A stretch of DNA of 64,000 nt from Escherichia coli (GCF_030013595.1 NZ_CP122769.1); one strand, 5' to 3'; shown: positions 57,101 to 63,100, numbered from the stretch's first letter. Made by a program: the numbers.

Positions 57101-60100
57101 CCTGAAACACGATCCGTGAGTAATTGAAGGGAAATATCAGCTGCTCGCGTGGCCTGGCTTGCAGATATTTTTGCATGCAAGAAAGCCCCCTTTCTGAATT
57201 TGGCCGGAGTTAGCCCTGTAATATCCTCAACACTAAAATTAAGTGAGGAAAGAATTGAAAATAAGTCGCAGCTAATGACTTCAGTATTATTAGGCATTTT
57301 ACCCGTCCCCGTCCATATTCATGATACGGTAATGATACCAGGTCGATATCATTACCTAATAACTTGGTGAAAGAAAATCTGTAATTTTTAGTTAACTAAA
57401 ATTAATAGTCTCAATACTGCTCAAGAATTCTTTTTTTACGTCCGGTGTAAAAGGTATACGTTCAATGTATTTATAAAGTGTCGCAAATGTTTTGGGTTCA
57501 ATGTTTCGGGAGATAATGTCATCAATCGGATCTTCGAACATATTGATAAAGATATCGACATGCTGCTCTCCGCTTTCTGATGCCTTTGAAAGAAGACTGA
57601 CCACTTCAATGTAGCGATTATCCTGCTCTGCAATGAACAACCAGTGCCCTTCGTTAAAGGCGGGTGCAGCGCTGTAGCGTTTAACAACAATTTCTGAAAG
57701 ATTATATCCTGCCTGATTCAGCAGATTATTAAAGTTGAGTTGAGTTGAAATCACGTCTAACGTTTTCATAAAACCTCCTTTTCATCTGTACTTATTATAC
57801 TGTTACCCAACCCCCAGCTAATAACCTCCCAGCAAATTTTCAGAAAAAAAACACCGCCTTTTATTTAAGATTGAACACATCCTTTTTAAATACCAACAAT
57901 GATTATGAAACCACAATGTAAGTGAAGCGCCATTATGGAAAAGTAACTTTTGTGCAGCTCATAAATTTTATTTATTAGTTACGTTCCTTTGTCTTGTGGT
58001 CGAAGTTCATCAGGCGAGGCCTAAGAAGAATATGTGTGGTTTCAGCCAATGCGGTGATCGGGCATTATAATTTGGTCGGGCTATTATACGTGGGTAAAGG
58101 TAGTGGTAGGGAGAGGATCAGGTTAAATTGCATTTTCCCGGTTGCCTTCCCTGGCCTACCGGTTTCAGGTCAGACGCTAAGACCAGCGGTAATACTTAAA
58201 GTAGTCCTCATTTACAGCCAAAAACTCCCTTAAACCGTTCATTAATCCCTTTTCAAACGCTGTAACGATAAACCGGTATCCGTCCAGTGTTTCAATGTAG
58301 TAGATCCCGCCCGGTGTTATTCCAACATGCAACACCTCGGCTGTCATCATAAACTGGCCTTCCGGAAAATCATGCGACAGGTATATAAAACCCGTCGTGG
58401 CCGGTGCGGGTGTGGCATTCACTAAGACACCGTTAAACTGCTGCCCGTGCCTCGCCGGTACAAGCTCACTTCCCCTGGTTGACTTATCGAGCAGCCCCTT
58501 AACATCTTTTTGCTCTTTAGATGAGGTATAGCCCCGCACATCACTCCCATCACCTGGGCGAGAGCCGGTGCCGACATGTGCAAGACGACGGTAAGCGCTG
58601 CGCATATTGATGTGGCAGGATGCCCCGGCTCTACCCTGAAGCCTTACGCCAAAATCTTCGCAAAGTAATAAAATCTGACGTAGCTGGTGTTCATACACGG
58701 ACGCAGAAAGTGAAAGGTTGAAACTGGAAAAGGTCAGTTCTAAAACCTTTTCCCGTTTGTCATTGAAATGTGCTTCCAGCCTGATGATTGGCTTTTCCGA
58801 CATTGCAAAAGCTTTGTCCGTTGCTCTGTACCGGCATTCATCTCCGAAACATTCTTCAACAACGCTGGCTATAACCGTGTCGTGATCGCCATCTTCCGGA
58901 GCTGGCACAAAGATTTCAAATTGTGCCGGTGTCTCCGGCTCCAGCAGAACGGGATATAAACGCGGAGAATTAAGCAATGCGCATTCAGAATTAATGAGCT
59001 TAACCCAGGCGCTTTTGTCGTCCGGATCCTTAAGCTGCTGTCCAAGGTTATCGCAAAAGTCTACTATCTGACGGGTATGCTCATCCGTGACTGCACAGAT
59101 CAGGTTAAGACCATGCGTGGCCATACTCAATTCCCGGGTTCGGGACTGGGAATTGATCGACCAGGGGTTAAGTGAAAGCGAAATAGGGCTTATGGAAGGG
59201 ACGACCGTCTCATTCTGCAAATCTGTAAGCTGGCAGTTCGCAGTAGGCTTCGGGGAAAGGGTACTAAATATGTAACTTGCCTGTTGTTTAGTACTGGCCT
59301 GGATATAAAACATCGCGTCCATGCTTGTATCCCGGGATGAAATTGAAAATAGCTTCATTTTTAACCTTAATGGATGAGCGATTTATAGTCATGTGCTGAC
59401 AAATGGACATTATGTGCGCCATCATTCCATTCAAAGAATAATCGATACTTAGAGTTTACTCGAATGGAGGAATAACGGTTTGACGTCATTCTTAAGCGTT
59501 CATAACGCAAGCTGTTGGATAATAACTCCCGCTCACTCTGGACATTATCCAGCGTTTCGAGTCGACACAGAATCGCGTTAATAATTTCAGAAGGAATACC
59601 TGCCGTTGTTTTTCCATTACGGAAGAACTTTTCAAGCCGTCTGTCTTTAAATGAATGGATCATAGTTCCTCCGTAATAATTGACCTTAAAATTAAATTAA
59701 AAGGGCTTTGAATTAATGAATCCCTAAAATGCGGGCGGCGACTGCCAGCTGCTTATCACTTAACTGACGCTGGTGGGTTAAAGAAGACTTAAGGCTTTCC
59801 AGAAAATTATTACTGCTGGATTGCTGGGTGATTGCATCAACCATTTTTTGATGAGATCTGCACCATGCATTGAACGCAGAGTTGTGGGCGTTTTCAGTCC
59901 TCAAACGCTCGTTTTGCAAGGATGCTGACACTTTGCGGGCAGCTTGAGCATTAATGCGGTACAGCGCATTCAGCGTGTAAGAAGTGCGGGTCGTTTCGAG
60001 GCTGTAACCCGTGGCTTTACAAGCCATACAGCGACTTCTATAAAAATGCTTACGCTCTCCCCGACCATTGCATTTATCGCAAAGAATACGAAAAGTATAT

Positions 60101-63100
60101 TCCGCAGTACCTTTTACAGAATCAACACAGCGGATTTTTGCGCTGGAGATTTCAATTCCACTGCGATCATAATATTTGGTCATAATGTGATTCCTCCGGT
60201 TAGTTCTGGAGTAATCATGACAGAATGAATCTACTGGCTAATAACCTGAGAGTAAATATTTTAAAAAAACATTGAGAGAGGGTCTGCAAATTTATACACG
60301 AAGGATTCAAATATAATTTTGTTTAAAAAATTAAGAGCATTCTGAAGTAAAAGTGCATCAAAAAGCATTCATGGATAAATCATGTACTGGTGCCAGCCAT
60401 TTAAACGCGGGCATTGTTCCGGAGTGATTAAACGGTTTAGCATCATAGATTAAAACCAAAAGGAAGGCGTCCTTCCCGTCTCGGGAATATTACTTTCCCG
60501 TTTGCAATTTAAGAGCCACTTAATGAGAAAGTAATAATTAAGTCATGCTCAACTCTACATATTACATTGAGGATGGCGTAACAGGGTACGGCATACTACC
60601 GCACCCTTCTGAAGAGCTTATGTTTGAGGGAATTCTATAGCAAATGTGGCCGTGCCAGATTGACCACTTACAGCGGGAGTAACGGGATACGTGCGCTCTT
60701 CACCATTACCAAGATCCAGTGACAGCGATTTAGTTTCACCAGGCTGGACCGTAACTCCGGCAACCGTAACGCCGAACTGGGCATTTTTCTGAACAGTCAG
60801 GGTTCCGTTTAACTGTCCGGTAATGATAGAACCGTCCTGACGCCGCAACACACTGGTTCGGATGATGGCCAGCGGCGTGTTGTCCGTTGCTTTCAGTGCT
60901 ACGGCTGTGGCCAGCGTCTTGAGATTATCCAGCATAATCAGATTCGCAGGCTGGTAGGTAAAATTAAGCGTTTTAGTGGTCCGGTTACCTGATTCGTCAA
61001 TAGCCAGTGCCTCCAGATGATACATCTGTCCCGATTCGTCAGTGTTGGGGAAGATTCTGGGGTATTCCGGAATAAAGACATCCTTGGATAACGGCGTGAA
61101 TGCCAGGGTGACCTTTTCAGAGTTAGGTCCACCAGCGAGCTGAAGCGATGTCAGGGAAGCATCCCCAGAGGCATCAGTAACGCTTATGCGAAGGTTCTCA
61201 AGCCCTTTAACCAGTTTTCCTTCTGCGTCTGCGCCATTAAAACTGAACGCGATAACCGGAAGCGTTGAGTCAATTTTCAGCGGTGCATTAAGCGTTTTGG
61301 TTCCGGTGTTTCCAACAAGATCCGTGGCAGAGACGCTAACCACCGTATAATCCCCGTCCGGTAGACCAGCGTATGAGAAGGTGGCGTTTTTGGTTTATAA
61401 TCGCTTTCACTGACGGTCACAGGCTTCAGCGTGAAAGGTTCCCCCCGGGCATTTTTAAGGGTGGCTTCGAAAACTTTGGTATCCCAGTAGCTGATGTTCC
61501 AGGCGTTGACGCGATCATTATCGGTGGCCGTCATAGTGATTGTCTTGGAGGCCTTGTTTACCTGAGCGACATTAACCACCGGTGGGTTGTTATCCCAGAT
61601 AACCGTAAAATTACCAGCAAGCGCATCGAATATGCTGTCACCATCTTTTCCCGAGTAAAGGTGCAGATACTCAAATCCTTTGTCACTGGTGTAGTTGAAG
61701 TTAACCGTCATCTCGCATGAACTTTGTCCGATAGGTATAGTGCAGAACCAGGCTGCATTTTTTACCGTTCTGAACTTTTGCACGTATGGTCGGGGTTCAG
61801 CGGTTACCTTTATGCGGCTAATGGTGGCGGTTTTAACGCTGATTGAGGCCTGAGTTAACCACTCACTGGTATCACTCCGGTACATCTCTTTAGCCACTAT
61901 CTTCGGGGCTATTTCCATCGCCGGGGCTGGAGTGAAGTTGAGGGAGTTATGATGAATTCGTCTTACTCCTCCTGCCAGAGTCTGGAATTCATGATAAGTA
62001 TCCCCCACATTGGGATATATGTATTTGAAAGTATAAATATTATAAGTGCTATCGGACGTCTGGAAATTCGAGTCCGCCCAGCCATATTTGGAACCGTTAA
62101 CAGCAGTAAAGTCACTTTTTTTCCTTAATACCCGTACGGAAATAGGGTTCTGGAAGACGGTCATGCCAGACTGATAAGTGACCCATGATCCGGTAGTGGC
62201 GTCCTGCACCTGGATGATATCGTCAGGCTTAACCCGATCAATTACGCTTCGGCGGCTTAGTTCGATCCTGTTTCCCGCTTTGTCATAAAGGTAGATCCCC
62301 ACTTTATATTCAGAGCGGTTTTCCGGTGCCAGGGCATTGCTGCTTGCGTCGGCGACTTGAACGGTTACGCTACCTTCCACTGTATTAATTTCCGCTGGCT
62401 TTTTACGCTCCACTCCAGCGGCATCGGTTATGAAATATTCAGCATTAGCAAGCCCGGAACCTTTATCACTCAGTCCATTAAAGACCAGTGCCTGGACGCT
62501 GGCGTACTGCATACCGGCTGGTACTGAAGTGAAGATCGCTTCGCTGCCAAAGTTCCACCCGTTTCTCGTATAACTTATGGTACCCGTTGCCGGAGGCGTT
62601 CGGTCAATTGCAAGCGGGTAATCCTGCCGGGAGACCTCCTTCCCTTGCAAGTCGGTAATCACCTCTCTGAGGGTGAAGCTATCTTCTCCCATCGCTGGTA
62701 CGGTCAGAGTCTTGCCGTAATAATCAAAGCCTGTCGAAGATGTGGTACGGTCATCTACGGTAACCAGGCTGCTTTTCGTGCTCCAGATGAGGCTCCCGTC
62801 ACTTTTCAGCAGACTGAGCGTAATATAACGGTCCAGACCGGAAATAACGGCAACGTCAAAGCTCGTTACCGGATTAATCCATACGGATGCAGGCGATACG
62901 GTCTTTTTAACGTTCAGGGTATCTTTAAAGCTGAATTCTGCGATTTCAGCGGAAGCTCCTGCGCTGAAACCTGCAAATGCAATAAGCAGGGCTAGTTTGA
63001 TTTTCATGGGTTGTCTCCTGATCAGGTTCCCCATGATACTTTTTCAGTGTTCGAGATCTTTTCGGGAAAATAGCTAATTTTAATGTTTTTCTTTTCTGCC

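What the first reader, a model, noticed from the sequence alone, without database searches (positions are those of the whole stretch)
58177..60183. HigB-like toxin lacks a canonical HigA and sits between a zinc-finger protein and a 393 aa unknown
The 98 aa ORF (59367-59663) matches the HigB-type killer pattern. HigB is normally followed by a roughly 100 aa HTH antitoxin. Here the downstream gene, starting 9 bp after the stop, encodes a 393 aa protein with no recognisable HTH, and the upstream gene encodes a 156 aa protein with two DnaJ-type CxxCxGxG zinc-finger repeats. This could be a non-canonical toxin-antitoxin module, possibly tripartite or with a large fused antitoxin/effector, or a toxin-based abortive-infection system.
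Basis: partly seen in the sequence, partly recalled or inferred. Interest (0 to 1): 0.6.

Follow-up and report, generated by a model that had tools for sequence, protein, structure and literature searches.

The report
IncHI plasmid HigB toxin, unorthodox partners
Large IncHI resistance plasmids carry a conserved three-gene operon in which a HigB-type toxin lacks its usual small HigA antidote and sits between a zinc-ribbon protein and a 393-residue protein of unknown fold, so this is probably a new variant of a plasmid "addiction" module whose antidote has not been identified by experiment.

Summary
Three minus-strand genes encode a 156 aa Cys4 zinc-ribbon protein (ZnF, 59713-60183), a 98 aa HigB-like protein (59367-59663; Pfam PF05015, E=6e-18) and a 393 aa protein ("Big", 58177-59358).

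The window is IncHI2 plasmid backbone. The triad occurs in about 1,300 PLSDB plasmids and 260 of 5,426 complete E. coli genomes. Its order and spacing are kept in 11 lineages, down to 30-35% identity of the outer proteins, while the flanking genes vary.

Neither neighbour has an HTH or any HigA similarity. A genuine HigA run as a control scored HTH_3 at 2.7e-10. Big has no relatives by sequence or by fold outside IncHI plasmids. PGAP's name "flavin reductase" is unsupported.

All three genes are under purifying selection, and HigB most strongly (dN/dS 0.04).

Indirect evidence favours Big's duplicated, acidic N-terminal 240 residues as the antitoxin:
- the toxin-first order with an 8-15 nt gap;
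- the sister clade, which also has a tightly coupled downstream partner;
- two natural truncations that keep residues 1-242/258 beside an intact HigB;
- repeated HigB knockouts.

The basic ZnF would then be a regulator. Nothing has been tested experimentally, and the structure prediction of the fused chain was uninformative.

Verdict: a new variant of a known kind, of moderate interest.

The parts
59713..60183 (-). ZnF: 156 aa basic protein (pI 9.8). It has an N-terminal beta zinc ribbon with one Cys4 site (C35, C38, C52, C55), then a long helix and three short helices ending in the conserved motif LSDKQLAVAARILG. It is the first gene of the operon and has a GGAGG ribosome-binding site at 60193-60197.
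   Evidence: It matches phage family phrog_4046 at 1e-12.
59367..59663 (-). HigB-like toxin gene: 98 aa, basic (pI 9.7), with a GGAGG ribosome-binding site at 59668-59672. The most conserved gene of the triad.
   Evidence: PF05015 at E=6e-18. PDB HigB match. dN/dS 0.037-0.16. The length is fixed at 98 aa in all lineages.
58177..59358 (-). 'Big': 393 aa acidic protein (pI 5.5) of unknown family, starting 8 nt after the HigB stop codon.
58639..59358 (-). Big residues 1-240: four beta-beta-alpha units that form a tandem duplication of a ~120 aa module; acidic (pI 4.8). Proposed antitoxin part.
   Evidence: AF2 model with pLDDT mostly 66-92 across this region (lowest 10-residue block 60). Unit 2 vs unit 4: hhalign probability 93%, E=2.6e-7; unit 1 vs unit 3: E=1e-3. 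Retained in both natural truncations that keep HigB intact.
58477..58638 (-). Big residues 241-294: basic linker, largely predicted disordered (244-274), followed by one helix (280-294).
58177..58476 (-). Big residues 295-393: the best-conserved segment, a small beta-rich domain plus two helices. Related stand-alone proteins of 110-145 aa exist in metagenomes, and the family has no Pfam entry.
60214..60246 (-). Conserved upstream block GGTTATTAGCCAG-N9-10-TCTGTCATGAT, 30-60 nt before the ZnF start codon. Candidate promoter (TGn-extended -10-like) and/or operator.
   Evidence: It is the only part of the ZnF upstream region conserved in all nine lineages aligned. The simple sigma-70 scan did not call it.
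60461..60477 (-). Terminator-like hairpin followed by a T-run, after the upstream Ig-like gene. It marks the 5' boundary of the triad's transcription unit.

Best explanation
The three genes form one operon of the IncHI plasmid backbone. The operon encodes a non-canonical, probably three-component, type II toxin-antitoxin (addiction) module.

Proposed roles (all inferred):
- HigB-like protein: a RelE/HigB-fold, ribosome-dependent mRNA endonuclease.
- Big: the replacement for HigA. Its acidic, internally duplicated N-terminal 240 residues (a fused 'pseudo-dimer') bind and neutralise the basic toxin. Its C-terminal domain has a separate accessory or sensing role.
- ZnF: Big has no DNA-binding domain, so the basic zinc-ribbon protein encoded first supplies nucleic-acid binding and autoregulation at the conserved upstream block, as omega does in omega-epsilon-zeta or PaaR in paaR-paaA-parE.
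- Outcome: loss of the plasmid would free the toxin and arrest plasmid-free segregants.

Shown here: family membership of the toxin; absence of HigA or any HTH; operon-like anatomy; conservation of the unit; purifying selection.

Inferred only: toxicity, which protein neutralises the toxin, DNA binding by ZnF, and the addiction phenotype.
For: - Toxin identity. Its Y-E...H-x-Y residue pattern is shared with relatives that do have HigA partners, so catalytic competence is plausible.
- Selection on HigB is strong (dN/dS 0.037 at dS 1.6), so it is not a decaying relic.
- The toxin-first order and the 8-15 nt HigB-Big gap are kept in every lineage. The sister clade in Klebsiella MOBH plasmids also has a downstream acidic partner 10-11 nt away and no ZnF.
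- HigB and ZnF are basic and Big is acidic in 5 of the 6 lineages tested.
- Co-occurrence is almost 1:1: about 1,297 PLSDB records have the HigB clade and 1,295 have the Big C-terminal domain.
- The flanks vary while the triad stays intact.
- Natural variants fit toxin-antitoxin logic. HigB is knocked out independently in L025, L038 and L039, and in protein clusters P0067 and P0070. Big is truncated only after residue ~242-258 where HigB is intact (L027, L030). ZnF, HigB and Big residues 1-231 are deleted together in L028.
- A conserved promoter/operator-like block lies upstream of ZnF.
Against: [quoted passage not shown]
- Big resembles no known antitoxin by sequence or fold, and 393 aa is unusually large for an antitoxin.
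- The AF2 model of the fused three-protein chain gave no evidence of an interface (pTM 0.41; the HigB segment itself scored pLDDT 24-52).
- Two of the four residues critical in Proteus HigB are replaced: His54 by Glu/Lys and His92 by Lys.
- In the most divergent lineage, L002, Big is basic (pI 8.2).
- The module is confined to one plasmid backbone rather than moving between replicons as many TA cassettes do.
- The natural-variant sample is small and was not collected systematically.
- The ZnF module occurs in phage proteins with no HigB nearby.
Confidence: 0.4

Rival explanations
1. The upstream zinc-ribbon protein ZnF is the antitoxin, in the antitoxin-first order of relBE and with a zinc-binding module as in MqsA. 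Big is then an unrelated co-transcribed cargo, effector or sensor.
For: ZnF is small (156 aa) and is encoded first, with a strong ribosome-binding site. It has a Cys4 zinc site, as MqsA's toxin-binding domain does (MqsA from general knowledge). Its C-terminal helices are the best-predicted part of ZnF in the fused model (pLDDT up to 86). A full-length ZnF gene or CDS is present in every locus examined here in which HigB is intact (sequence confirmed for L027).
Against: ZnF is as basic as the toxin (pI 9.3-9.8). It shows no similarity to MqsA or to any solved antitoxin. The sister HigB clade has no ZnF but does have a coupled downstream partner. The ZnF module is the N-terminal half of ~310 aa phage proteins with no HigB nearby. 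The ZnF-HigB spacing is 40-63 nt, looser than HigB-Big. Frameshifted ZnF variants exist (P0084, P0089), but the state of HigB beside them could not be checked.
Confidence: 0.15
2. This is not a toxin-antitoxin system. The HigB-fold protein has been domesticated as a non-toxic or weakly active RNA- or ribosome-binding factor. The three genes are ordinary backbone genes of a long same-strand block that serves plasmid establishment or transfer.
For: His54 and His92 of the Proteus catalytic set are replaced. A Lys at position 92 accompanied a ~190-fold loss of activity in the Proteus deltaH92 construct. The sister clade ends in AHAHA and lacks Asp-Tyr. All three families are restricted to IncHI-type backbones. 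The triad sits in a block of about 40 kb of same-strand genes, mostly of unknown function, that also holds orphan methyltransferases and a Hok toxin. HigB is unusually conserved for a toxin.
Against: Relatives that do have HigA partners show the same Y-E...H-x-Y pattern, so the residue changes are a subfamily trait. Repeated independent knockouts of HigB alone are typical of a costly or toxic gene. The tight 8 nt coupling to an acidic partner is classic type II TA anatomy.
Confidence: 0.2
3. The triad is a toxin-based abortive-infection or defence system, or conversely an anti-defence/establishment device. Big's C-terminal domain or ZnF would sense a phage or a host cue and release HigB, by analogy with the toxin-antitoxin-chaperone (TAC) systems that defend against phages.
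For: HigB-based TAC modules have been reported to mediate antiphage defence (bioRxiv 10.1101/2024.02.24.581848, abstract seen). Big carries an extra, separately conserved C-terminal domain that is dispensable beside HigB and also occurs as stand-alone proteins. ZnF has phage homologues. Other TA modules cluster next to the triad.
Against: No PADLOC model hits any of the three proteins. There is no phage trigger data. The module is fixed in one plasmid backbone and is not found in defence islands of diverse genomes. No chaperone-type (SecB) component is present.
Confidence: 0.12

Closest known systems
Canonical HigBA type II toxin-antitoxin modules (e.g. Proteus vulgaris Rts1 HigBA; PF05015 toxin + XRE-HTH HigA)
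   Same: The toxin belongs to the same Pfam family and aligns end to end. The gene order is toxin-first with a downstream partner a few nucleotides away. The module is plasmid-borne.
   Different: There is no ~100 aa HTH HigA: the downstream protein is 393 aa with no HTH and an unrecognised fold. A zinc-ribbon gene lies upstream in the same operon. Only Asp and Tyr of the Proteus catalytic tetrad are kept.
Toxin-antitoxin-chaperone (TAC) systems (HigB-HigA-SecB-like, e.g. M. tuberculosis Rv1955-1957; PMC5105189)
   Same: A three-gene operon built around a HigB-family toxin. The third protein carries a motif known from chaperones, here a DnaJ-type CxxCxGxG zinc site.
   Different: The third gene is not SecB-like and lies upstream, not downstream. 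There is no HigA and no recognisable chaperone-addiction extension. The ZnF protein has no J domain.
Three-component TA systems with a separate regulator (omega-epsilon-zeta; paaR-paaA-parE; from general knowledge)
   Same: The proposed logic is the same: an antitoxin without a DNA-binding domain, plus a separate small basic regulator encoded first in the operon.
   Different: The gene order is regulator-toxin-antitoxin. No sequence similarity to omega or PaaR was seen in the Pfam, NCBIfam or solved-structure (PDB) scans of ZnF. The regulatory role of ZnF is only inferred.
MqsRA (from general knowledge)
   Same: A RelE-fold toxin and a partner with a structural Cys4 zinc site.
   Different: MqsA has a C-terminal HTH and is encoded after the toxin. 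ZnF has no HTH, is encoded before the toxin, and shows no detectable similarity to anything solved other than DnaJ zinc fingers.
Sister clade in Klebsiella MOBH plasmids (e.g. pIMP4_LL34, pMTY12137)
   Same: It holds the nearest relatives of this toxin (42-44% identity). These also lack HigA and also have a tightly coupled, acidic downstream partner of unknown family.
   Different: The partner is only 105-111 aa and unrelated to Big (hhalign probability 0.2%). There is no ZnF upstream. A small membrane protein follows.

Membership tests
HigB-like RelE-fold toxins (Pfam PF05015) | Full-length profile match to the family | tested here: met
   PF05015 at E=6.2e-18, residues 4-88 against model positions 2-88 of 91. 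phrog_3066 at 8.9e-18. 4MCT HigB at 7.5e-6.
HigB-like RelE-fold toxins (Pfam PF05015) | Catalytic tetrad of Proteus HigB (His54, Asp90, Tyr91, His92; PMC5027501) | tested here: not met
   Asp92 and Tyr93 are kept. The His54 position is Glu55 (Lys in L002), and the His92 position is an invariant Lys94.
HigB-like RelE-fold toxins (Pfam PF05015) | A plausible active site shared with relatives that are paired with an antitoxin | tested here: inconclusive
   HigA-paired relatives in L036 and L037 share Tyr-Glu (positions 54-55), Arg74 and the His91-x-Tyr93 pattern. Whether these residues catalyse cleavage is inferred.
HigB-like RelE-fold toxins (Pfam PF05015) | Growth inhibition and ribosome-dependent mRNA cleavage | not testable with these tools
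   Requires expression and cleavage assays.
Canonical HigBA module | Toxin gene first, partner gene immediately downstream | tested here: met
   The gap is 8 nt in the window and 8-15 nt in all lineages.
Canonical HigBA module | ~100 aa HigA antitoxin with an XRE-type HTH | tested here: not met
   No HTH in Big or ZnF. hhalign against a real HigA gives probability 0.1-0.2%. The control HigA gives HTH_3 at 2.7e-10.
Toxin-antitoxin-chaperone (TAC) | SecB-like chaperone gene and HigA with a chaperone-addiction extension | tested here: not met
   No SecB or HigA profile hit in any of the three proteins.
DnaJ central zinc-finger domain (PF00684) | Repeated CxxCxGxG motifs forming zinc centres, within a J-domain chaperone | tested here: inconclusive
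   Two motifs, giving one Cys4 site, with all four Cys invariant. The matches are only marginal (Pfam 0.0011; 2CTT 0.006-0.017). There is no J domain and no second zinc centre.
MqsA-type zinc antitoxin | Zinc-binding toxin-binding domain plus a C-terminal HTH | tested here: not met
   No MqsA among the PDB sequence/profile hits at E<=10, and no HTH.
Flavin reductase (PGAP product name of the 393 aa protein) | Flavin-reductase / FMN-binding split-barrel domain | tested here: not met
Known anti-phage defence systems (PADLOC-DB v2) | Match of any component to a defence-system model | tested here: not met
   No hit for any of the three proteins at E<=0.01.
Three-component TA with a separate regulator (omega-epsilon-zeta / paaR-paaA-parE type) | Three co-oriented genes in one operon, with a separate DNA-binding autoregulator | tested here: inconclusive
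   The operon-like anatomy and a conserved upstream block are present. DNA binding by ZnF is inferred only from its basic charge and zinc ribbon.

The most novel reading that the evidence does not exclude
This is a three-component HigB system of a kind not yet described. A novel pseudo-dimeric antitoxin family (Big residues 1-240) would be fused to a sensor domain that also circulates as a stand-alone small protein. A DnaJ-type zinc-ribbon protein with phage relatives would control it as a regulator or dedicated holdase. The system would then act as a conditional switch (phage- or transfer-triggered release of the toxin) rather than as simple post-segregational killing, on the plasmid family that spreads mcr-1.
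Probability: 0.15. Interest if true: 0.75.

Novelty: new variant of a known kind. Interest (0 to 1): 0.55.

Why it matters
IncHI1 and IncHI2 plasmids are major carriers of multidrug and colistin (mcr-1) resistance. This module sits on essentially all of them: about 1,300 PLSDB records and 4.8% of complete E. coli genomes. It is routinely annotated as an 'orphan' RelE/ParE toxin next to a 'flavin reductase'.

If it is a working addiction module, three things follow:
- it would help explain the persistence of these plasmids;
- it would add a new antitoxin family (and possibly a new regulator family) to the type II toxin-antitoxin repertoire;
- it would be another case of toxins exchanging partners.

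It would also correct a misleading product name that has spread across thousands of records.

Tried and rejected
- **Fused structure prediction.** An AF2 prediction of a linker-fused HigB-Big-ZnF chain with an 11-lineage paired alignment was meant to reveal an interface. It was uninformative: pTM 0.41, and HigB itself scored pLDDT 24-52.
- **RNA antitoxin or repeats.** There are no Rfam hits and no tandem or meaningful repeats. The small ORFs in the HigB-Big junction are all overlapped by the conserved long frame.
- **Scan of 100,044 species-representative genomes.** This returned only 5 loci, all IncHI plasmids in Enterobacteriaceae.
- **Viral-contig scans for the C-terminal domain family.** A tblastn of that domain against phages found nothing.
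- **Literature.** Searches for transposon-saturation or functional data on IncHI plasmids found nothing usable.
- **L013 and P0026.** A 127 aa 'N-terminal only' protein next to HigB looked like a minimal antitoxin. It is one half of a split Big gene on a contig with 2x coverage, so I did not use it as evidence.
- **pHZ028 (L029).** This record is full of frameshifts and was disregarded.
- **Active-site reading.** I first took the loss of Proteus His54 and His92 as a sign of inactivation. I withdrew this after finding the same pattern in HigA-paired relatives.
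Full report
**What is in the sequence**

Window 58177-60183 holds three consecutive minus-strand ORFs:
- a 156 aa protein, "ZnF" (59713-60183);
- a 98 aa protein (59367-59663);
- a 393 aa protein, "Big" (58177-59358).

ZnF and the 98 aa gene each have a GGAGG ribosome-binding site. Big's ATG lies 8 nt after the stop codon of the 98 aa gene.

The 98 aa protein belongs to the HigB-like toxin family. It matches PF05015 at E=6.2e-18 over its whole length and phrog_3066 'toxin of TA system' at 9e-18. 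It aligns end to end with Proteus vulgaris HigB (4MCT, E=7.5e-6).

ZnF carries C35xxC38xGxG and C52xxC55xAxG. All four cysteines are invariant across lineages. Its matches to the DnaJ zinc-finger domain are only marginal. It therefore has one Cys4 zinc site and no J domain.

**Where the window comes from**

The region is 100% identical to IncHI2 (MOBH, MPF_F) conjugative plasmids such as NZ_CP022165.
- About 1,300 PLSDB records carry it, at ≥99%, ~96% or ~69% DNA identity (IncHI2 sublineages and IncHI1-like plasmids).
- So do 260 of 5,426 complete E. coli genomes.

PGAP calls the 98 aa gene a 'RelE/ParE family toxin'. It calls Big a 'flavin reductase' or 'hypothetical protein', with three different start codons (315, 381 or 393 aa).

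The long frame is the real one. Homologues of 391-394 aa align from Met1 down to 30% identity, and codons 1-78 evolve as coding sequence (dN/dS 0.14-0.32).

**No HigA, and no HTH**

Big has no hit in Pfam, NCBIfam, PADLOC, PHROGs or a PDB profile search.

Its AF2 model (pLDDT 71, pTM 0.63) shows:
- four beta-beta-alpha units in residues 1-240;
- a disordered basic linker (244-274) and then a helix;
- a small beta-rich C-terminal domain.

HigB relatives at 35-38% identity on other plasmids are followed directly by an annotated HigA. The canonical arrangement is therefore the norm and this clade is the exception.

No RNA family or repeat array suggests an RNA antitoxin.

**The triad is a conserved unit**

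I recovered the triad from 11 distinct lineages. Identities to the window, in the order ZnF/HigB/Big, run from 96/100/95% down to 35/60/30%.

Order and spacing are constant: ZnF-HigB 40-63 nt and HigB-Big 8-15 nt. The flanks are not constant:
- the Ig-like gene is upstream in some lineages and downstream in L021;
- the 125 and 142 aa genes are present or absent;
- other TA pairs (TacAT, Xre-RES) and ISApl1 sit just downstream.

Only one short block upstream of ZnF is conserved in all nine lineages aligned: GGTTATTAGCCAG-N9-10-TCTGTCATGAT, window 60214-60246. A terminator-like hairpin follows the preceding gene. This anatomy fits a single ZnF-first operon.

All three protein families are very narrow:
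- full-length Big forms only two 50%-identity clusters among 1.84 billion representative proteins;
- a scan of 100,044 species genomes returned five loci, all IncHI;
- the HigB clade and ZnF are similarly confined.

**Selection and the active site**

All three genes are under purifying selection, and HigB is the most constrained. For window vs L010, dN/dS is 0.037 for HigB at dS 1.6, against 0.096 for ZnF and 0.155 for Big. HigB is not a decaying orphan.

Four residues are critical in Proteus HigB: His54, Asp90, Tyr91 and His92 (PMC5027501). Only Asp and Tyr are kept here. The other two positions are Glu55 (Lys in L002) and an invariant Lys94.

I first read this as possible inactivation. However, the HigA-paired relatives in L036 and L037 show the same Tyr-Glu ... 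His-x-Tyr pattern. It is therefore a subfamily trait of toxins that do need antitoxins. Catalytic competence is plausible but unproven.

**Which neighbour is the partner?**

Several indirect lines point to Big, and specifically to its N-terminal 240 residues.
1. Toxin-first order with a tight gap is the higBA arrangement.
2. The nearest sister clade (42-44% identity, Klebsiella MOBH plasmids) has no ZnF. It does have a coupled downstream acidic 105-111 aa protein of unknown family, unrelated to Big.
3. HigB (pI 9.6-10.1) and ZnF (9.3-9.8) are both basic. Big is acidic (5.2-5.9; N-terminal domain 4.8-5.6) in five of the six lineages tested; L002 is the exception.
4. Residues 1-240 are a tandem duplication of a ~120 aa module. 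Unit 2 vs unit 4 gives hhalign probability 93%, E=2.6e-7, and unit 1 vs unit 3 gives E=1e-3. That is a fused pseudo-dimer with antitoxin-sized halves.
5. Natural variants fit:
   - IS21 cuts Big after residue ~249-258 in NZ_PP024954, with HigB and ZnF intact;
   - an Enterobacter hormaechei chromosomal copy has Big truncated at residue 242, with full-length HigB and ZnF genes called beside it;
   - ISApl1-mcr-1 removed ZnF, HigB and Big 1-231 together in pECJS-59-244;
   - HigB alone is knocked out independently by a nonsense codon 9 (L025), a split ORF (pF1140-1) and IS91 at codon ~13 (p4FM-mcr1), and in protein clusters P0067 and P0070.

This is the pattern expected if HigB is costly and Big 1-240 is needed beside it. 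The sample is small and was not collected systematically.

The linker-fused AF2 model gave no information about interfaces.

**What ZnF and the Big C-terminal domain might be**

ZnF matches phage family phrog_4046 at 1e-12. It corresponds to the N-terminal half of ~310 aa phage proteins such as Pseudomonas phage F8 ORF012. These share the zinc ribbon and the '...SL...L....LSD.Q.A...' helices, add a further Cys-rich domain, and have no HigB nearby. ZnF also has a weak hit to Q-like antiterminators (0.0019).

A basic zinc-ribbon protein encoded first in an operon whose putative antitoxin lacks a DNA-binding domain is a natural candidate for the autoregulator. A chaperone-like role is a weaker alternative suggested by the DnaJ-type motif and by the TAC precedent.

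Big's C-terminal ~100 residues are its best-conserved part. They recur as stand-alone 110-145 aa proteins in metagenomic runs of small unknown genes. The family has no Pfam entry. This domain is dispensable beside HigB in the two natural truncations, and its function is unknown.

**Conclusion**

The most likely reading (confidence about 0.4) is a non-canonical, probably three-component, HigB-family addiction module fixed in the IncHI backbone. In this reading Big 1-240 is a new kind of antitoxin and ZnF is the regulator.

Rival explanations:
- ZnF is the antitoxin (0.15);
- HigB has been domesticated and is not a toxin (0.2);
- the triad is a defence or anti-defence switch (0.12).

It is not a canonical HigBA, TAC or MqsRA system, because the defining partner features were tested and not met.

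It is best classed as a new variant of a known kind. It is of moderate interest because the module is present on nearly all IncHI resistance plasmids and is misannotated in public records. Simple toxicity and rescue experiments would settle the question.

Noticed in passing
window 60618-63034 (frameshift at ~61393): The Ig-like (DUF4165/Big_3) gene upstream of the triad is split into two overlapping ORFs in the window. The cause is a 1-nt deletion in a T-run relative to the otherwise identical NZ_CP022165, where the gene is an intact 796 aa CDS. It may be a real pseudogene or a homopolymer sequencing error.
   Followed up: partly
window 58177-59358: PGAP propagates the product name 'flavin reductase' for the 393 aa protein and uses three different start codons (315, 381 or 393 aa) in different records. 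No profile or fold supports the name.
   Followed up: yes
window ~57770-58176 and the equivalent sites in L006, L020, L024, L011, L026: The region downstream of the triad tolerates insertions and collects TA modules. ISApl1 (L026) and TacA/TacT (L006) sit immediately after Big. Xre-RES (L024) and a second TacA/TacT (L020) lie one or two genes further on, and Xre-RES in L011 lies several genes downstream.
   Followed up: partly
L032 2501-3544; L033 2501-3560 (Klebsiella MOBH plasmids): A sister HigB-like clade (103 aa, ending AHAHA) also lacks HigA. It is followed 10-11 nt later by an acidic 105-111 aa protein with no Pfam or NCBIfam hit, and then by a small membrane protein. This is a second uncharacterised non-canonical HigB pairing.
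   Followed up: partly
window 59125-59663 vs 58177-58638, compared with L012: Between the two IncHI2 sublineages, synonymous divergence is only 0.02-0.05 across HigB plus Big codons 1-78. It is 0.27-0.28 across Big codons 241-393 and 0.12 in ZnF. This suggests recombination inside the operon or selection on synonymous sites around the HigB-Big junction.
   Followed up: no
L034 2944-3873 (Pseudomonas phage F8 ORF012); L035 2875-3822: The ZnF module (zinc ribbon plus 'LSD.Q' helices) is the N-terminal half of ~310 aa phage proteins of unknown function (phrog_4046). These end in a second Cys-rich 'C.CCGR.LT...S...GIGP.C' motif.
   Followed up: partly
P0031-P0056; L008 3989-4411; L009 646-1038: Big's C-terminal ~100 residues define an unnamed family of stand-alone 110-145 aa proteins. 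The shared motif is G.F[DN]GV ... TSE[IV]V ... Y[IV]ET..G.RYL ... N..YF...[QR]WS. They are found in metagenomic runs of small same-strand unknown genes and have no Pfam match.
   Followed up: partly
window 55783-56403 (-): The 206 aa ORF that PGAP annotates as a hypothetical protein is a methyltransferase (phrog_15480, 3.5e-34). It lies next to the Mrr_N + N6_N4 orphan DNA methyltransferase at 54364-55614.
   Followed up: no
NZ_CP022165 168.7-209.4 kb (window ~24,500-64,000): The triad lies in a block of about 40 kb in which most genes share one strand and have no known function. The block starts beyond the Tra1 genes (mobI, MobH relaxase, traD) and includes a Hok toxin, DUF3085/DUF957 proteins, a PAPS-reductase-family protein and orphan methyltransferases. 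It resembles a plasmid establishment or anti-defence region, but the direction of transfer was not determined.
   Followed up: no
L013 1916-3106: In one metagenomic lineage Big is split into 127 aa and 236 aa ORFs next to an intact HigB. The contig has only ~2x coverage, so this is probably an assembly error and not a natural two-gene version.
   Followed up: partly
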